64,000 nt of DNA. Source: Octopus sinensis (taxonomy: Eukaryota). The notes below the pieces were generated by a model. That model saw only the letters and a program-made list of their open reading frames with translations, was not told the origin of the DNA and ran no database searches. The position numbers were made by a program, and so were the translations under genes. Position 1 is the stretch's first letter, and each line of letters opens with the position of its first letter. Of the stretch, positions 130 to 62,574 are shown piece after piece. The stretch lies in NCBI RefSeq assembly GCF_006345805.1, contig NC_043013.1:34658001-34722000 (forward strand), given 5' to 3'.

Positions 130-1022
130 TTGATGTGGTGACTCAACTTGCTAGCTATAGCAGTTAAACCTTTTGCATATTTTTGCATATTCCTTAAAGA
201 AACAAAGACAGAGGATGGATAATACAGTAGTTCTATATATAAGAGACTACAAAAAACTGGATGGTCATGTCAGGAATATCTTTGATTATAGTTTTATATA
301 ATCAAGGTTGGCCCAGGGCTAAACAGCTACTACAACAAACATAAGTCTGTATAAGAGCCTTTAAGTGGTTTTATGATCTGCTAGATATATCAGCTGAATC
401 TCCTTCAAATCACTTTTAAATGTCTTTAAAAATGTAGGATACTCTGGATATCAATGTGGTCATAGATACATGGTTTGAATATTAGATGAGGATGTCATGG
501 TTGGAATGTCTTTGATAATTACTGGCCTGGACTAAACAACAACAAAATGTGGAACAAGAAAAACAATAAGATGAAATTAATGCATGAGCTACTGAACCAA
601 GCAGTCAGTTAACCAAAGAACCACCTAGCAAACTGACCGGTCAACCGAGGAAGTATCCGACCGATCAACCGAGGAAGCATCCAGCCAAACAACCAACCGG
701 CCATGCAGCCAACCAAAAACAGTCATTCATCCAACCAACCAAGAAACTAATCAAGAAACCAGCCATTTAATAAACCAAAATTCAACCATCAATCTGTATA
801 AACCAGCCAAAGAGTAATTATGTGGCCACATAAGCTGCTAGATATAACAACCAAAACTCCGTCAAATTACACTCTGCCATATGAAAAGATATGAAAATGC
901 ATTGCATAATGTAGCTCAAGATACACTATGAGTGAAATAACAGATGGAAGGGTCATGGCAGGAATACTTTTGACCATAGGTCTGCTTAGTGTGCATTGGA
1001 TTCAGGCTGAACAACAACAGAC
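130..1022 (+). repeat. Three clustered copies (~130-340, ~360-545, ~815-1022) of a ~200-bp interspersed repeat ending in (CAA)n; more copies at ~2120-2340(-), ~10260-10480(-), ~32000-32200 and ~33360-33500
   Basis: Shared motifs CTGCTAGA(A/T)ATA.CA, GATGGTCATGG..GGAAT.TCTTTGA and GG.CT(A/G)AACAACAAC occur in each copy. Confidence 0.7.
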
Positions 1023-1361
1023 GACAAACCACATTGATTTGTTATGAAAGTAAATTATTTTATTTATTTGCAAGAAATTTTCATTTCTTCTTCCTTAATT
1101 GATATTTTGCTCTCCCTTCTACCATTATTTTTTTTTTTAATTTTCATTTTCATAAATATAGTTTTTCCCAGTTTTTTTAGTGAAACACAGTGAGATGTTA
1201 CACTATTCTTATGTTGCTTCTGTTCATTTTTTAATTAAATTTTATCTCTAATCAATCAATCAATCAATCATTTATTTTAGATTTTAAATTATAACCGGTT
1301 TAGTTGTTTTGTTTCATGGGTAAAATTACTGTTCTTATTTTTAATTTAATTTTGTTTTTAG

Positions 1362-1387
1362 AGAAGACGTACTGTGTGTAGAATCGG
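1362..1387 (+). other. Candidate 26-nt microexon
   Basis: Long U-rich tract ending TTTGTTTTTAG, then AGAAGACGTACTGTGTGTAGAATCGG, then donor GTGAGC. No homology support. Confidence 0.25.
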
Positions 1388-1649
1388 GTGAGCGATGGAG
1401 ATGTTGGCTGTTGAAGGGGGTTAGCAAATACAATAACATACAATTAGAACAAAATACTTAAACACTCCTAACACAGATGGTGTTGGGGTAAGTGTTTGTG
1501 TGGTTGTTACTGCGGATGTGGAGGCAGTATGGAGGAAGGTGAGTGGTGGTGGCATAGATTAGTCCACTACAACCTTTTTAGACTTGTAGTACACTTGTAT
1601 GTTTTTCAAAATTTGGCAGCACACCTGAACTACAAACACAACTAAAAGT

Positions 1650-1890
1650 ATACTCTTTTACTATTTTATTTGTTTCAGTCATGTGACTGTGACCATGCTG
1701 GAGCACCGCCTTTAGTTGAGCAAATCAGCCCCAGGACTTATTCTTTGGAAGCCCAGTACTTATTCTATCAGTCTCTATTGCCGAACCGCTACATTATGGG
1801 GGCGTAAACACATCAGCATTGGTTGTCAAGTGACATTGGGGGGACAAACAGACACCCAAACATACACACACATTCATATATATATATATA
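1650..1890 (-). mobile_element. tRNA-derived SINE family A, 3' half
   Basis: Matches the tail of the full copies at 6575-6980 and 20776-21165 (TTGTTTCAGTCAT.TGACTG...CATGCTGGAGCACCGCCTTTAG). Confidence 0.8.
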
Positions 1891-1892
1891 TA

Positions 1893-1924
1893 GGTAGTGG
1901 TGGTGGTGGTGGTGGTGGTGGTGG

Positions 1925-2002
<78 letters not shown>

Positions 2003-2057
2003 AGGTTTTGGCAGCAGCGATGATGATGACAACAACGATGACGATGATGATGATGAT
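1893..2057. repeat. (GGT)n/(GAT)n compound microsatellite
   Basis: Directly visible; it explains the poly-G/D/H/M ORFs. Confidence 0.95.
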
Positions 2058-2379
2058 AAAAATAATTATGCAGGACAATCACTTTTATTGGGTAATGATA
2101 GGGTAGATGGTAGTGCTTGTTGATGTTGTTGTTTAATCCCAGATCAACATGGATTGAGAAACCCTATAATCAGTAATATTCCATCTGTGGCCATCCCACA
2201 TTTTGCCTTTGGGCAGGGAACCCAGGATCGCACGATATAACATGACTGTTTCAAAGATAGTAGGGTATGATTTTAGAGAGATTTGGCCACATTTCTAGCA
2301 AGTATAATCATGATATTGAGGCTCTCTTGTATTTTTAGCAGTCTTGCAATGGATTTTAGTAATGCTATTAGTTAAGTGG

Positions 2380-2850
2380 AATGGAGCATGGCTCAGTGGT
2401 TAGAGCATCAGGCTCACAGACATGAAGTAGTGAGTTCGATTCCCAGACAGAGCTGTGTTGCGTTCGTGAGCAAGATTCTTTATTTTCACGTTGCTCCACT
2501 TCACTCAGCTTTAGAAATGAGTTGTGATGTCACTGGTGCCAAGTTCTATCAGCTTTTGCTTTTTCCTTGGACATCATCAGTGGTATGAAGAGGGGAGGCT
2601 GATATGCATGGGAAACTGGTGGCCTTCTATAAGCAACTTTGCAGATCCACTGCATGTCAGTAGCATGTAAAAGGCACCCACCACACTCTGTAAAGTGGTT
2701 GGCGTTAGTATGGTCATCCAGCAGTAAAAACCATGCCACAATAGACAATCGGAGTCTGGACAGTTCTCTGGCTGACCAGCATCTGTCAAACCGTCCAACC
2801 CATGCTAGCATGGAAAACGGACATTAGATAATAACGGTGATAATGATCAA
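2380..2850 (+). mobile_element. tRNA-derived SINE (family C head) followed by an RTE-type 3' tail
   Basis: A box TGGCTCAGTGG, B box AGTTCGATTCC; tail ...GTCAAACCGTCCAACCCATGCTAGCATGGAAAACGGAC shared with other copies. Confidence 0.75.
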
Positions 2851-3124
2851 CATAATGATGGGCAGAATGCCACAAAGCATTTTATCCATGCTAACAATTT
2901 TGCCAGCTCCCAACCTTAAGACACCCAATTATTGATTATCTAAAAGGACCCGAATTTCTAGTGCATATTGGACTTGAACTCAATGCCATTGTTTTTGCAT
3001 CAGTAATGTCTACATGTGTGGAAAAAGAATAACTTTTTATCTTATCTCTCTTGTCCTTGTGCTGTTATTTTCGATTTATCATATCAAATTTTATATATGT
3101 AGATACATACCTACATATCATATA

Positions 3125-3207
<83 letters not shown>

Positions 3208-4082
3208 GTATGTATGTATGTATATGTATATATGTATATACATATATAAATTTTAGTAGGTTGAGCTTGCACTCGGAATCTTTATTTCCAATGCAGAAAT
3301 AAAAGTTTTGATTTATTAAACCCAGCCTAGAGAAATGCATATATCTAGAAACGGAACACCTAAAGACAACCGAACGATGCACCAAATGAAACCATGATGT
3401 AAGTAAAAACTGCCAAAACATGAAACATTAAAAGACAAGAAAATTTATATCATCATCTCAAACAAAAAAAGAAGCCCAGAATCAAAGGAAAGACTAGTGA
3501 TAGTTTATATAGATAAAAATCAATTAAGAAAATTGATAATATTGTGAGGAGTGTTGAATTCTGATGGCATCTTACCAAGAAAATAAATTCAGAAATTGAA
3601 ACAAATGCTCAAGAAAAGTTTGTCCATGGGTGAAGAAGTTCTGTTTTCATTGATATGGTTTTAAGTTCAGTCCTGTTCCATGGTATGAGGGTCAAGTGTC
3701 TTGGGCTGAGCAATGCCTTGAGAAGGAACTTGGTAGATGGAAACTGTAAAAGTCCATCATATGTGTATATAGATTGAAAAGGCGGTAGATAGATAGATAA
3801 GTAGATAGATAGATGAATAGATAGATAATTAGATAGATAGATGAGTAGATAAATAGATAAGTAGATAGATAGGTAGATAGATAGATAAGTAGATAGATAG
3901 ATAAATGGGTGCATTATAGACATAAAGCATGTGAAAAGCACCCAGTACACTCTGTAAAGTGGTTGGTTTTAGGAAGGGCATCCAGCTGTAGAAACCATGC
4001 TAAGACAGACAAATGGAGCCTAGGCAGCTCTCCAGCTGGACAGGTCCTGTAAAACTGTCCAAACCATGCCAGCTTGGAGAAT

Positions 4083-4860
4083 GGACGTTAAATGATGATG
4101 ATGATACGTTCACTATATGCATTTTATTTTTGGGTTTCTCACACACAAACACTCACACATATATACATCTAGATGAACACATATGTGAACATGAATCTTT
4201 GTACAGTTTTAAATTTCCCCAAGACACCTGATGAAGGCTGGAGAGTAAGTCAGCCGAAACGTTGTATTAACAACAAACAAGATGAGGACAAAAATCCGTC
4301 AAATGTAAATGATGTAAATAATGTAAATAATGCATCTTTGTTTTTACATTCGCCCACCACCTTTTGATAACTGGTATTGGTTTGTTCATGTCCATTTAAT
4401 TCAGTAGTTCAGCGAAAGAGACTGAAGGAATATGTATCAGATTAAACAAATAATTATCAATATTAAGGTTGATCTGTTTGATGGAAGGAAAAACACTTCA
4501 AGCTAGTGTCCCAGCATGGTTGTAGTCCAATGACCCCACCAAGAACAAGATAAACGATGAGCTGCCTGATGTTAATTAATCCTGGCATGCAATCGTCTTA
4601 TGTTACATTGCATTTTTGAAGCAGAGTTTCATGTACCCATGTTAGCAAGCTATAAAGACCAGCTTACCACAAAATATGTACTTTAGCGAGAATCTATTAT
4701 ACATGCAATAAACACACATCTTGTATAATACAGCAAGTATCAAACAAGCTGTCCCTTGTGGACATAGATAAAGCATTAGCAAAAGGGATCTCTCTGATCC
4801 CTTTCTGTTTATGTGTGCAAGTATGTATCTACTAAACATATCAATGAGCCCTGACAATTT
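4083..4860 (+). repeat. Copy 1 of a ~780-bp composite duplication (copy 2 at 31181-31982)
   Basis: Colinear match including non-repetitive sequence; ORFs 4642-4857 and 31764-32042 share near-identical translations. Confidence 0.9.
4222..4268 (+). ncRNA. Minimal type-I hammerhead ribozyme motif, family 1
   Basis: gacac-CTGATGA-a-GGCTG(loop)CAGCC-GAAA-C-GTT-gtatt; loop-less palindromic ACGT stem III. Confidence 0.75.
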
Positions 4861-5220
4861 ACTTTGAGTTTTTGATGATTTTGAAATAGACAGTCAGATA
4901 TTTGAAACCATTGATATCTTTAATTCTTAAATATCCGCTACATATTTCAATAGGAAAAATAAACTTTTTGGGTTTTTTGGGTTTTTTTTAAATAAATCAA
5001 TGAAAAGTAGTCAAAGTTAAGGGAATGCTTAAAGCAAGTTAATAGCTGTTGTTCAGAATATGACACAAACGAATCCAAAAACTTAATCTTCTTTGAAGTG
5101 ATAATACTAATAAAGAAAGAAAGAAAGAACTAACGATAAGCAGTTAGATACACTGTCATCTCGAAAATTTTTGATAAGAAAGAGCAATGAAATCCAGTGT
5201 TAGCCAGTCACAGATTAGCG

Positions 5221-5513: not shown

Positions 5514-5563
<50 letters not shown>

Positions 5564-5925
5564 ATATGTATATGTATATATATTTATGAGTGTATGTATA
5601 TAAGTATGGGGCTATATAAAGTGCGTCCACCCTGTATATATATATATATGTGCATGTCCATATATGCTTTTATAAACTGTATATGGATATTTTTAGGTAT
5701 GTCAATGTATATGAAATATGAATCAATGAAAGCTATCAATAATAAAGAGAAATCAATTTGAGAGAGGAGTTGGTGAGAATTGAACTTAATTCATGTGTAT
5801 ATATATGTGTGTACATGGGTGCATGTGTACAAACACTTTGATAATGTAGATACGTAATGTTAGTCATTACATACATTGCCATGCATGTAAATGCTTATAT
5901 AAACAAAAAGTAACAGACTCCTACC

Positions 5926-31010: not shown

Positions 31011-31089
31011 ATGCTATTAGTAACAATTCAATAATAATAACATCAAAAAATACCTTAGGAATGAGAACCCAGGTTTGAAATTTCTCTGA

Positions 31090-31135
31090 GGCACCTGATG
31101 AAGGCTGGAGGGTATATCAGCTGAAACGTTGTGTT
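31090..31135 (+). ncRNA. Minimal hammerhead family 1, within element fragment 31031-31180
   Basis: ggcac-CTGATGA-a-GGCTG..CAGCT-GAAA-C-GTT-GTGTT; upstream (AAT)n-CATC..ATACCTTAGGAATGAGAACC as in the arms of 60898-61540. Confidence 0.75.
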
Positions 31136-31180
31136 AACAACAAACAAGATGAGGACAAATATACGTCAAATGTAAATAAC

Positions 31181-31982
31181 GGACGTTAAATGATGATGAT
31201 GATGAGGAGGAGGAGGAGGATGAGGATATATTCACTATATGCACTTATTTTTTGGTTTCTCACACACAGAAACACTCACACATACATACATATAGACGAA
31301 TACATGTGAACATTAATCTTTGTACAGTTTTGAATTTCCCCAAGACACCTGATGAAGGCTGGAGAGTAAATCAGCCGAAACGTTGTATTAACAACAAAAC
31401 AAGATGAGGACAAATATCAGTCAAATGTAAATAACGTAAATAATGTAAATAATGCATCTTTGTTTCTACATTTGCCCACCACCCTTTGACAACTGGTGTT
31501 GGTTTGTTCACATCCATATAATTCAGTAGTTTAGCGAAAGAGATTGAAGGAATATGTATCAGATTAAACAAATAATTATCAGTACTAGGGTTGATCTTTT
31601 TGATTGAAGGAAAAACCTTCCAAGCTAGTGTCCCAGCATGGTTCCAGTCCAATGACCCCACCAAGAACAAGATAAACGATGAGTTACGTGATGTTAATTA
31701 ATCCTAGCATGCAATCGTCTTATGTTACATTGCATTTTTGAAGCAGAGTTTCATGTACTCATGTTAGCAAGCTATAAAGACCAGCTTACCACAAAATATG
31801 TACTTTAGCGAGAATCTATTATACATGCAATAAACACACATCTTGTATAATACAGTAAGTATCAAACAAGCTGTCCCTTGTGGATATAGATAAAGCATTA
31901 ACAAAAGGGATCTCTCTGATCCCTTTCTGTTTATGTGTGCAAGTGCGTATCTACTAAACATATCAATGATCCCTGGCAATTT
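31181..31982 (+). repeat. Copy 2 of the ~780-bp composite duplication
   Basis: Colinear with 4083-4860. Confidence 0.9.
31343..31389 (+). ncRNA. Minimal hammerhead family 1
   Basis: gacac-CTGATGA-a-GGCTG..CAGCC-GAAA-C-GTT-gtatt. Confidence 0.75.
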
Positions 31983-59494: not shown

Positions 59495-60248
59495 TATCTG
59501 TTTATATGTATGTGTATTCAAATATACTGATGCACACCTGCAAACAGGTGGGTACATGTGCATCTCCATGCATACGTGTATGTGTCTCTATGGCCCTCTA
59601 TCTGTGCATGTGTGAGTGTGTGTATGGAGGTGTACTTTAGAGTATCAATAATTGGCAAAAGATCAATTATTGGACAACAGCAGTAAATTGCAAAGCACAG
59701 TAAAAACCTGATTAATCCATAATGAAATAAAAAGAATTAAAAACTGCCAGGTGTGTGTGTGTGTAGACATAGAGTTGGTGATGATAATGGTGATGATGAT
59801 CATGATCATCATCATCATCATGATGATCACAATCATGATGGTGATTGATAATGACGGTAATGATGATGATGATAGTGTTTTAAAAGGTAGGATGGCTTTA
59901 GGTGTCGAAGTGGTGGAGGAGCTTATATAGGAGAAAGGAAGTTTACAAGTATGTGTGTGGAGGGTTGAGTGGGGTGTGTGTGTGGTTGTTCATCAAGTAA
60001 ATGATTCATTAAGTTATGTAATGCAAAAACAATATTAATAACCCTGTCTATGCTGTTTCCAATGGAAACTTGCCATGAAGGAGATGTGGGCTGTTATAGC
60101 ATGAACCTGAATATGTTATGCTGTGCATATGATTGTGTACCTATATCTTTGCTCTATGTGTGTGCATGTATGTGTGTGTATGTATGTACTAATGTGTGTT
60201 TAGATAGCTAGCTAGCTTGGTCAATAGATGGTTGGATAGACGGATGGT

Positions 60249-60249
<1 letters not shown>

Positions 60250-60340
<91 letters not shown>

Positions 60341-60545
60341 CGGATAGATAGACATACAGACGGATACATGGATGGATGGATAGATGGATTGATAAACAGA
60401 CAGACAGGTATATAGATAGATGGATGGACAGATGGATGGACAGACAGATAGATAGATAAGTAGATAGATAGATAGATAAATAGATAGTAGGTAGGTAGGT
60501 AGGTAGTAGGTAGGTAGGTAGGTAGGTAGGTTGACTGATAGATAC
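60250..60545. repeat. (GATA)n/(GATG)n/(GGTA)n tract
   Basis: Directly visible. Confidence 0.95.
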
Positions 60546-60954
60546 ACATATACACATATGGAAGAGGGTATGCATTTCAGTGTCTGCATAAGAGTCATGG
60601 TCTGGTGTGTGTGTGTGTGTGTGTGTGTGAGTGTGTGTGTAAGCATGTGTGTATGCATGAGATGCTGCATGGGTGTGTAAGCATGAGCAAATATAGAAGC
60701 ATTAGTACCTTTGTTTATAGGTCACCAGAAACCGATATACAGAGGTGGGAGGGTATGAAGATCCATATCCTTTGCATTATATGATACAAGTATACAGGGT
60801 GCATAAGGTATTTGGGGACAGATTTATAAAAAACAGATACATAATAACAGACAATAATTATTTATCAAAAATATGCTATGAGGATTAAAATAAACCTTAC
60901 AGTATTTACATTATTTACATTTGACAGATATTTGTCCTCATCTTGTTTGTTGTT

Positions 60955-61000
60955 AACACAACATTTCAGCTCATATACCCTCCAGCCTTCATCAGGTGTC
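60955..61000 (-). ncRNA. Hammerhead family 1, left arm (decayed)
   Basis: Minus strand: GACAC-CTGATGA-a-GGCT..AGCT-GAAA-T-GTT-GTGTT. Confidence 0.65.
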
Positions 61001-61049
61001 TTGGGGAAATTTAGAACTTAGGTTCTCATTCCTAAGGTATTTCTTAATG

Positions 61050-61080
<31 letters not shown>

Positions 61081-61252
61081 CATTATTATTATTATTATTA
61101 TTATTCAGGTCACTGCCTAGAATGGAACTTGGAATCTTGGGGTTAGTAGCCTGCTCTCTTAACCACTACGCCATATGACCATGGTGTAGTGGTTAAGACC
61201 GTGGGCTACTAACCCAAGATTTTCAGTTCAATTTCAGGCAGTGACCTGAATA

Positions 61253-61285
<33 letters not shown>

Positions 61286-61294
61286 ATAACAATA

Positions 61295-61356
<62 letters not shown>

Positions 61357-61403
61357 TCGAAAAATACTTTAGGAATGAGAACCCAGGTTTGAAATTTCCC
61401 CCA

Positions 61404-61450
61404 AGGCACCTGATGAAGGCTGGAGGGTATATCAGCCGAAAAGTTGTGTT
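61404..61450 (+). ncRNA. Hammerhead family 1, right arm
   Basis: GGCAC-CTGATGA-a-GGCTG..CAGCC-GAAA-A-GTT-GTGTT (C15.2 mutated to A). Confidence 0.7.
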
Positions 61451-62429
61451 AACAACAAACAAGATGAGGACAAATATCCGTCAAATGTAAATAATGTAAA
61501 TAATGTACATAATTCTTCATCTCTCAAATACAGAACTGTAAAATAAACCTTCTTTTCTATAATGTTATTCAATAAAGCCATCTTCATCTTCAACATCTGC
61601 TTGTATATGAGATCTAAATCATCTACAAGCTCAAATCAAATGGTCCTGATACATTTTGAACATTATTCTGACTATGGCATCTTTCAAAGAATCTTTGGTT
61701 TTATGGGCATGTTCACTGACTTCTCTCTCAACAATGCTCCACATGTAATAATCCAATGGATTGATATGTGGGGAATCAGGAGGCCAAACGGCATTGGTTA
61801 TACAATCATGAAAATTTTCAGCCATCCATTTCTGTATTACTAGAGCCATGTGTGATAGCGCAGAGTCTTACTGAAACAAATATGGCCTTCCATTGCATAC
61901 ACTGTCTATCCAGAGCTTAACAATTATTTCCAGGACCTCAATGTAGGTGGCAGAGTTAACTGTAAGGCGTTGTAGAATGAAGTAAGGAGGCATAACATGT
62001 CCTTCATTACTGACAACCATTAAAACCATGACAGTTGCAGGAAATTTTGTATGCATAACGTTTGGAACTTCGTAAGGGTCTGCACATAGCCATCTATCAT
62101 TTCTTCTGTTAACTTTTTGATCTTGGTTGAAGTTTTTCTCATTTAGCAAAAACCTAATAAAATCTTCTTCTGCAGGATTTTTCAGTTTGTTTAAGAGCTT
62201 ATTAGATCTGATGTAGTGATTTTCTTGTGTGTATCTATCTCTTTTTATATCCATCCATCCATTGATCCAGCTATCCATCTATCTATCTATCTGTCTGTCT
62301 GTCTCTCTGTCTGTCTGTCCATCTAGCTATCCATCTATCTACCAATCTATCTATCCATCTATCCATCAATCTATCCATCTATACATCTACCTGTCTATCT
62401 ATCTGTCTATCCGGCTGTCTGTCTATCTA

Positions 62430-62462
<33 letters not shown>

Positions 62463-62539
62463 GTATCTATCTATCTATATATCTATCTATCTATCTATCT
62501 ATCTATGTATCTATCTGTCTGTCTGTCTATGTGTGTATA

Positions 62540-62574
<35 letters not shown>

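What the first reader, a model, noticed from the sequence alone, without database searches (positions are those of the whole stretch)
60898..61540. Palindromic mobile element pairing tRNA-like Pol III heads with hammerhead ribozymes
Seen: a ~640-bp fold-back with a 6-nt centre (61175-61180), inserted into a maT transposon with a 10-13-bp TSD. Reading outward from the centre, each arm has an A box (TGG(C/T)GTAGTGG), an anticodon-like arm, a degenerate B box, (AAT)n, then CTGATGA..GAAA with stems I and II, and ends ACTGTA. Established: tRNA heads drive SINE transcription, while minimal hammerheads and inverted ends are hallmarks of Penelope-like elements. Inference: this is a non-autonomous SINE-ribozyme hybrid, Pol III-transcribed divergently, processed by its own hammerhead and mobilised by a PLE reverse transcriptase. 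I do not know of a described SINE class with this architecture. Three further partial copies in the window show that it is a family.
Basis: partly seen in the sequence, partly recalled or inferred. Interest (0 to 1): 0.9.

Follow-up and report, generated by a model that had tools for sequence, protein, structure and literature searches.

The report
Penelope retrotransposon carrying a tRNA-type promoter
The palindrome is not a new SINE but the folded-back end piece of a protein-coding Penelope-like jumping gene; unusually, that jumping gene carries a tRNA-derived promoter-like segment where most short copies begin, which raises the untested possibility that it is transcribed by the cell's small-RNA polymerase (Pol III).

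Summary
The fold-back, tRNA-like heads, (AAT)n, minimal hammerheads and 13-bp TSD inside a maT transposon are real. But each arm is the pseudo-LTR end of an autonomous Penelope/Poseidon-type element found in this genome (L099): RT–endonuclease ORF, stop, ~30 nt, tRNA head, (AAT)n, then the ORF's own first ~165 nt holding the hammerhead. Head-to-head arms with one long and one short end (48 of 58 inverted pairs) and 7–15-bp TSDs are textbook PLE products. Short and ORF-linked copies show no fixed differences, so no separate SINE master is needed; both arms here are decayed. What is unusual is the head inside the autonomous element. Exact 20-mer counts jump 5.5-fold across the head's 5′ edge (896 to 4,938), the 2.3-kb sense strand lacks T≥4 runs (0 vs 3.4 expected, P=0.011; host controls 38 vs 40), and one of 20 foreign PLEs (L228) has an unrelated A/B head at the same place. 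Best reading: head-initiated Pol III RNA, internally primed and snapped back, gives these copies (0.6); Pol III also making the protein-coding RNA is about 0.3. No RNA data test this. tRNA-head plus hammerhead SINEs are already known (schistosome Sm-alpha).

The parts
60886..60898 (.). left target-site duplication (13 bp)
   Evidence: empty-site mariner copy L137
60898..61042 (-). left arm: first ~150 nt of the PLE ORF region, ending at the family's short 3' end (no tail)
60955..61000 (-). left minimal type I hammerhead, damaged in stem II and stem III
61051..61105 (-). left (AAT)n
61104..61177 (-). left tRNA-like head (A box 61163-61173, B box 61119-61129; A/B score 13.2)
61175..61180 (.). 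fold-back centre, at head positions about +1 to +7, next to the family's snap-back hot spot
61181..61250 (+). right tRNA-like head lacking its first 6 nt (A box 61182-61192, B box 61225-61235; A/B score 8.2)
61249..61354 (+). right (AAT)n
61375..61540 (+). first ~165 nt of the autonomous PLE ORF (first in-frame ATG 61375-61377, inferred); continues into the full ORF in other copies
   Evidence: frames of L125, L139; same N-terminus in P0024
61405..61450 (+). right minimal type I hammerhead (core 61410-61416 and 61438-61441; predicted cut after 61445); palindromic C of stem III changed to A
61507..61540 (+). ~33-nt PLE 'tail' present on one arm only
   Evidence: two 3' ends 30 nt apart also in runs X15, X17
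61539..61551 (.). right target-site duplication (13 bp)
61634..62209 (-). host maT-type (DD37D) mariner transposase, two stop-free pieces 61871-62209 and 61634-61867
60793..60885 (-). 3' end of the host mariner beyond the insertion
   Evidence: match to L137
4206..4331 (+). head-less hammerhead fragment of the same PLE end; shares flanks with 31325-31453
31041..31179 (+). head-less hammerhead fragment of the same PLE end
31325..31453 (+). head-less hammerhead fragment; duplicate of 4206-4331

Best explanation
The 640 bp is one dead insertion made by the RT/endonuclease of an autonomous Penelope/Poseidon-type PLE (shown, ~0.95). That PLE has captured a tRNA-derived A/B-box segment plus (AAT)n in its pseudo-LTR, ~30 nt after the stop codon and ~100-150 nt before the next ORF start (shown). 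Inferred: the segment is a Pol III type-2 promoter that sets the RNA 5' end a few nt upstream of the tRNA +1. The PLE RT starts internally, ~130-165 nt into the ORF, at either of two sites; when it uses the site near the 5' end of a head-initiated RNA it copies only tail to head, runs out of template at the head, snaps back on a short palindrome there and makes the inverted second arm. This yields SINE-sized, often palindromic copies without any separate SINE. The hammerhead belongs to the PLE and needs a same-strand partner (tandem pLTRs) or the protein; it is not functional at this locus.
For: Continuity ORF-stop-head-(AAT)n-hammerhead in 25 of 30 endonuclease-selected loci and full-length L099; tail runs on into the ORF; RVT_1 E=1e-9; 81 homologues at E<=1e-20, most annotated PF00078 and/or PF26215. 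58 of 106 tail-bearing loci are head-to-head pairs, 48 of 58 with one long and one short end, TSD>=7 bp in 35 of 58 vs 1.7% for shuffled flanks, matching PMC8557442, PMC3846280 and the two RT start sites of PMC11167929. No fixed differences, same 4-5% non-CpG divergence in ORF-linked (40 tails, 49 heads) and unlinked (153, 86) copies. 5' pile-up: exact 20-mers 685 (endonuclease), 896 (UTR just upstream), 4,938 (head), 6,356 (hammerhead); retention 23/55, 28/54, 47/121, 56/170 does not explain the step; only 3 of 29 head-selected arms continue upstream (read by eye); 328 exact fold-back centres at the head's 5' hairpin. No T>=4 on the sense strand of head, tail or the 2.3-kb ORF of L099; no ancestral T4 site in 78 kb of aligned copies (max 4 of 40); codon shuffle 0 vs 3.4, P=0.011; 15 host retroelement frames 38 vs 40.2; 53 foreign PLE loci 426 vs 402. 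L228, a foreign intact PLE, has an unrelated A/B head at the same position (score 19.1, P=0.005; other 19 of 20 relatives <=7.5).
Against: No RNA end, Pol III occupancy or cleavage data. The master carries an imperfect palindrome at -14..+10 around the head start, the strongest cDNA hairpin in the region (-4.6 kcal/mol), which could raise fold-back there without an RNA end; many fold-back centres lie inside the head (+15 to +43) rather than at its edge. The T4 test rests on one master and P=0.011; T3 and G4 are also below expectation; one host RTE frame (0 vs 2.7) and one head-less foreign PLE (L233, 0 vs 3.1) also lack T4. L228's whole ORF has 2 T4 runs vs 4.1 expected (P=0.18), both near its 5' end. 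Close head-less relatives (L221, L224) sit in the same tree group. Contig depth in four public runs did not show the step at the head (the reference head was a divergent copy). The one mapped PLE promoter is a Pol II-type internal promoter with a DPE (PMC2377424).
Confidence: 0.6

Rival explanations
1. The tRNA-like head is a passenger: a tRNA retrocopy or SINE fragment with an (AAT)n tail landed in the UTR of the master. The PLE is Pol II-transcribed like Drosophila Penelope; 5' ends pile up at the head because of the local palindrome (snap-back during reverse transcription) or a Pol II start nearby; the lack of T4 is chance in an A-rich strand.
For: Palindrome at -14..+10 is the top-ranked cDNA hairpin; head absent from 19 of 20 relatives; L233 and L021 show zero T4 without a head; D. 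virilis promoter is Pol II-type (PMC2377424 passages); palindromes at pLTR 5' junctions are common in PLEs (PMC3846280).
Against: A -4.6 kcal/mol hairpin is weak for stopping ~80% of cDNAs within ~57 nt when the loss rate upstream is ~0.2% per nt; A and B boxes have canonical spacing from the pile-up site; an independent capture at the same position in L228.
Confidence: 0.27
2. One reading: short head-hammerhead units are a self-propagating non-autonomous SINE with their own masters, borrowing the PLE RT in trans.
For: Short copies outnumber ORF-linked ones 5- to 7-fold; any copy with an intact head and tail could be re-transcribed and carries the RT start sites; non-autonomous PLE derivatives exist (PMC8557442, bioRxiv 10.64898/2026.07.22.740005).
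Against: No fixed difference or age difference from the autonomous pLTR; the head is part of the autonomous element; fold-back centres vary from copy to copy, so the palindrome is made anew at each insertion; only 29 of 158 copies keep an intact hammerhead and core columns decay like flanks.
Confidence: 0.08
3. The tRNA-like segment is cut by RNase P out of a longer Pol II transcript, which creates the 5' end at +1.
For: tRNA-like fold signal; several copies start at +1/+2, including the left arm here.
Against: Many copies and the 328 exact centres include 3-7 nt upstream of +1; the acceptor stem is poorly paired and Rfam tRNA does not score it.
Confidence: 0.05

Closest known systems
Endonuclease-positive Penelope/Poseidon PLE insertion units (D. 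virilis Penelope, A. vaga Pen2a, Anolis PAc; PMC8557442, PMC3846280, PMC11167929)
   Same: Single RT-endonuclease ORF, pLTR holding the first ORF codons and a minimal hammerhead, inverted 5'-truncated copy, 30-40-nt tail on one end, variable TSD.
   Different: tRNA-derived A/B head and (AAT)n inside the pLTR; T4-free sense strand; 5' ends piled at the head. The mapped Penelope promoter is Pol II-type (PMC2377424).
Minimal hammerheads of metazoan PLEs (Cervera and de la Pena 2014, PMC4209133)
   Same: Extra base before stem II, G10.1-C11.1, 5-bp stem I, palindromic positions 15.2-16.2; pairs on opposite strands 100-700 bp apart were already noted there.
   Different: None in the ribozyme itself.
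Schistosome Sm-alpha / Sj-alpha SINE-like elements (PMC2770079, PMC6765202)
   Same: tRNA-derived Pol III promoter followed by a hammerhead in a short high-copy retroelement.
   Different: Those are tandem, non-coding, with no ORF described in the passages read; here the unit is the end of an autonomous PLE and forms inverted pairs.
TRIMp3 elements Cassandra, Helenus, Ajax (Kojima 2024, PMC10886601)
   Same: Small-RNA-derived Pol III promoter placed inside a terminal repeat, proposed to arise by SINE insertion.
   Different: All non-autonomous LTR elements; that paper states their autonomous partners must use Pol II. Here the repeat belongs to a protein-coding PLE.
R2 retrotransposons (PMC6765202 passages)
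   Same: Ribozyme-bearing autonomous retroelement whose RNA is not made by its own Pol II promoter (Pol I co-transcription is recalled).
   Different: HDV-like ribozyme, rDNA-specific, no internal tRNA promoter.

Membership tests
EN+ Penelope-like element, Penelope/Poseidon type | Single ORF with PLE-type RT | tested here: met
   L099 frames; RVT_1 E=1.2e-9; homologues with PF00078/PF26215/PF28514
EN+ Penelope-like element, Penelope/Poseidon type | C-terminal GIY-YIG endonuclease with CCHH motif | tested here: inconclusive
   Motif read by eye in frames (VYSIPC-C...Y-GET, later H, H); Pfam gave no hit on two C-terminal pieces at E 0.1; 2 of 81 homologues list PF01541
EN+ Penelope-like element, Penelope/Poseidon type | pLTR with minimal hammerhead overlapping the ORF start | tested here: met
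   same encoded N-terminus in P0024
EN+ Penelope-like element, Penelope/Poseidon type | Inverted 5'-truncated copy, 30-40-nt tail on one end, variable TSD | tested here: met
   58 of 106 loci inverted; 48 of 58 long+short; TSD 7-15 bp in 35 of 58
EN+ Penelope-like element, Penelope/Poseidon type | Clade placement against named Repbase Penelope/Poseidon/Neptune references | not tested
   Tree held only unnamed relatives; the clade label rests on domain order and recalled motifs
tRNA-derived SINE | tRNA-derived head with A and B boxes | tested here: met
   17 bits, E=1e-6; A/B score P=0.003; z~5.5 to own tRNA-Arg(TCT); no Rfam/ARAGORN hit
tRNA-derived SINE | Independent non-autonomous master distinct from its partner retrotransposon | tested here: not met
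   Head lies in the autonomous element; no fixed differences
tRNA-derived SINE | Transcription by RNA polymerase III | not testable with these tools
   Only contigs were available
Sm-alpha-type hammerhead SINE / non-LTR retrozyme | Head-to-tail tandem non-coding units each with an active hammerhead | tested here: not met
   Copies are single or head-to-head; intact hammerhead in 29 of 158
TIR DNA transposon / MITE | Fixed-length TSD and equal terminal inverted repeats | tested here: not met
   TSD 7-15 bp; unequal ends in 48 of 58 pairs
maT (host element) | DD37D catalytic spacing | tested here: met
   37 residues between second and third D counted in frames; DDE_3 hit

The most novel reading that the evidence does not exclude
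An autonomous, protein-coding Penelope-like retrotransposon whose full 2.7-kb RNA is made by RNA polymerase III from a captured tRNA promoter in its pseudo-LTR, its ORF purged of T-run terminators; the same capture happened independently in a second PLE lineage (L228). SINE-sized copies are then by-products of internal priming on the same RNA, a direct route from an autonomous element to tRNA-head/hammerhead SINEs such as Sm-alpha.
Probability: 0.3. Interest if true: 0.85.

Novelty: new variant of a known kind. Interest (0 to 1): 0.6.

Why it matters
The palindrome itself is ordinary PLE debris. The tRNA promoter inside an autonomous element is the part that matters: autonomous retrotransposons are generally taken to be Pol II (or, for R2, Pol I co-) transcripts, and nine literature searches listed no PLE with a Pol III promoter. 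If true it gives a natural case of a Pol III mRNA that must be translated without a cap, links the unexplained role of PLE hammerheads to that problem, and offers an origin for tRNA-plus-hammerhead SINEs. It also warns that this ~20,000-copy family is likely to be filed as a SINE by automatic annotation. The predictions (5' triphosphate at the head, Pol III occupancy, T4 avoidance in other head-bearing PLEs) are cheap to test.

Tried and rejected
Rfam at gathering and E-value thresholds and ARAGORN found no tRNA or hammerhead in the window, L125 or L228; relaxed ARAGORN on the relatives was all noise. Viral contigs held no relative. Run search: no RNA holder listed; contigs only. Laying contigs of four runs on L099 showed two 3' ends ~30 nt apart but could not map 5' ends, and depth over the head was low because the reference head is divergent. 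My first guess that the ORF stop lies in the A box was wrong; it lies ~30 nt upstream of the head. A strict tRNA regular expression missed even this family's head and was replaced by a weight-matrix score. The automatic 5'-end classifier undercounted fold-backs, so rows were read by eye. A protein search for sister PLE families in this genome returned this family in the four regions fetched. The pooled L228 T4 value (P=0.018) double-counts two identical units and was replaced. The careful tree did not finish; the quick tree (51 of 73 rows) is reported. Earlier-findings look-ups by sequence and by genome were empty. Rejected: MITE/TIR element (variable TSD, unequal ends); free-standing tRNA-(AAT)n SINE (27 of 29 heads have the PLE tail, the other two are interrupted by other elements); functional divergent Pol III unit at this locus (both B boxes and both hammerheads damaged).

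Full report
Observation. The window lies in a 2.72-Gb animal genome (G000; probably a cephalopod, which is my recall and named by no call). The stretch 60898-61540 is a fold-back: the left arm read on the minus strand and the right arm on the plus strand align at 83-92% outside the (AAT)n. Each arm has an A box, a degenerate B box, (AAT)n and a CTGATGA..GAAA motif with stems I and II. A 13-bp duplication flanks it (60886-60898, 61539-61551), and it sits ~95 nt past the stop of a DD37D mariner transposase; L137 shows that mariner continuous across the site. Corrections: the left arm lacks the last ~33 nt; its ACTGTA is the family's short end with one substitution. The three other window copies have no head and two are one duplicated insertion. 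Rfam and ARAGORN see neither tRNA nor hammerhead.

What it is. Of 29 head-selected loci, 27 have the hammerhead part downstream. A few ran on upstream into a reading frame. Following it: 25 of 30 loci selected on that frame run directly into the head, with the stop codon ~30 nt before it; walking upstream gave an RT (RVT_1, E=1.2e-9) and a full-length copy, L099 (with two near-identical duplicates), in which the 'tail' continues into the ORF N-terminus. L131 and L149 show the whole junction endonuclease end-head-(AAT)n-hammerhead-ORF. So the finding's 'hammerhead end' is the first ~165 nt of the ORF, and a 59% identical protein (P0024) encodes the same hammerhead-derived N-terminus. The insertion pattern is that of PLEs: 58 of 106 tail-bearing loci are head-to-head pairs; 48 of 58 have one long and one short end, 1 has two long ends; in loci not selected on the tail, 55 and 54 of 118 ends fall at the short and long site; TSDs of 7-15 bp in 35 of 58 versus 1.7% for shuffled flanks. 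This matches the inverted copy plus 30-40-bp tail of PMC8557442 (passages), Pen2a of PMC3846280 (passages), the two internal RT start sites and ORF-overlapping hammerhead of PMC11167929 (parts 1-2 of 4) and the minimal hammerheads of PMC4209133 (parts 1-2 of 4), which also notes opposite-strand pairs 100-700 bp apart. ORF-linked and unlinked repeats have the same majority base at every tested position and the same 4-5% non-CpG divergence. Copy number is about 20,000 (6,356 exact 20-mers at ~33% retention; 3 loci in 400 kb of evenly spaced samples; both rough). Five organism labels hold the junction stretch or part of it, and contigs of three DNA-like runs cover all 30 bins of L099. Only 29 of 158 copies keep an intact hammerhead; both arms here are damaged and lie on opposite strands.

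What is unusual. The head is tRNA-derived: 17 bits, E=1e-6 against an HMM of 27 tRNAs from this genome (only six isotypes sampled), A/B score 20.5 versus 30-37 for real tRNAs, P=0.003. Three signs suggest it works as a Pol III promoter. (1) Copy 5' ends pile up at it: exact 20-mers number 685 in the endonuclease, 896 in the UTR just upstream, 4,938 in the head 57 nt further on and 6,356 at the hammerhead; measured retention (23/55, 28/54, 47/121, 56/170 among best-scoring loci) makes the step larger, not smaller; 328 sites have the exact fold-back centre at the head's 5' hairpin. (2) The sense strand has no T>=4 run in head, tail or the 2.3-kb ORF of L099, and no such site is ancestral in 78 kb of aligned copies; synonymous codon shuffling of 1,953 nt expects 3.4 (33 of 3,000 shuffles reach 0). 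Fifteen host retroelement frames give 38 versus 40.2 and 53 of 79 foreign PLE loci (those with >=900 nt aligned, some duplicates) 426 versus 402. (3) Of 90 foreign loci, 50 had the ORF end and 20 of those also a hammerhead; one, L228 (intact tandem PLE, 38% identical), has A and B boxes followed by a short AAT run at the same place (score 19.1, P=0.005; the other 19 score <=7.5); it is the top score in 344 kb scanned, above a real tRNA gene, and its head is unrelated to ours (z 0.9).

Against. No RNA data: only contigs were served, and their depth did not show the step. The master has a palindrome spanning -14..+10 of the head, the best cDNA hairpin in the region at -4.6 kcal/mol, and many fold-backs lie inside the head. 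The T4 result is one master at P=0.011; T3 and G4 are also low, and one host frame and head-less L233 also have none. L228's whole ORF has 2 T4 versus 4.1 (P=0.18); 0 versus 3.2 after nt 250 is post hoc. In the quick tree (51 of 73 rows, careful search unfinished) L228 and this family share a 12-row unresolved group with head-less L221 and L224, so shared ancestry of the head is not shown. The only mapped PLE promoter is Pol II-type (PMC2377424 passages).

Mechanism. Shown: structure, linkage to the autonomous ORF, two 3' ends, variable TSD, 5' pile-up, T4 absence. Inferred: Pol III start a few nt before the tRNA +1; internal priming near the 5' end of that RNA; snap-back at the RNA end giving the second arm; Pol III read-through of the whole ORF. 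Odds: PLE terminal-repeat identity 0.95; head-initiated Pol III RNA as template of the short copies 0.6; Pol III also making the coding RNA 0.3; passenger head 0.27; separate SINE masters 0.08; RNase P cut 0.05.

Known versus new. tRNA-head plus hammerhead SINEs exist in schistosomes (PMC2770079 and PMC6765202 passages). Small-RNA promoters inside terminal repeats exist in non-autonomous TRIMp3 elements, whose autonomous partners are said to need Pol II (PMC10886601 passages). Animal retrozymes are proposed PLE derivatives (bioRxiv 10.64898/2026.07.22.740005, part 1 of 5). A recent octopus repeat annotation has no mention of hammerheads in its main text (PMC13282606 passages); PMC4758252 (passages) only cites the 1994 octopus SINE paper, which I could not read. 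Nine searches listed no PLE with a Pol III promoter; Repbase, Dfam, most subscription journals and supplements were not seen, so the family may be catalogued. Earlier scan notes on other genomes report 5' pile-ups in another PLE and tRNA-bearing PLE-type non-coding repeats; unchecked leads only. Verdict: new variant of a known kind, interest 0.6.

Noticed in passing
L228:2759-2987 and 5550-5778 (record JGI1357J11328_10009043): Intact tandem PLE (2,791-bp unit, 855-codon ORF starting at the hammerhead) with its own tRNA-like A/B head and short AAT run between stop and hammerhead; only two T4 runs, both in the first 200 nt of the ORF.
   Followed up: partly
L124, L126, L128, L129, L134, L140, L141, L144, L148: 9 of 25 loci selected on the ORF N-terminus stop at ORF nt 224-263 past the tail, 8 of them followed by another piece of the terminal repeat: possibly a third RT start or self-insertion site.
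   Followed up: partly
L137:1297-1500: An independent full-length copy of the same PLE inserted in the same maT family about 10 nt from the site used in the window.
   Followed up: partly
L184:536-2381: A different PLE-like RT family in this genome (615-aa stop-free frame, two copies in 10 kb) with normal T4 content (10 vs 8).
   Followed up: no
L009, L037, L047, L050, L053, L055, L057, L067: The (AAT)n of this element is a frequent landing site or junction for other SINEs and Dong/R4-like LINEs.
   Followed up: no
window 4206-4331 and 31325-31453: Same fragment with the same flanks on both sides: a local duplication or carriage inside another repeat.
   Followed up: partly
window 60200-60530 and 62230-62570: (GATA)n-type arrays in opposite orientation flank the mariner, giving long low-complexity inverted repeats.
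   Followed up: no
L304-L314: Eleven contigs of bacterial genome bins carry PLE RTs, most likely host-animal contamination.
   Followed up: no
window 61453-61530: A 9-bp stem (AGATGAGGA/TCCTCATCT in the family) encloses the short RT start site and the repeated AATAATGTA unit, like the start-site stem-loop described for the anole element.
   Followed up: partly
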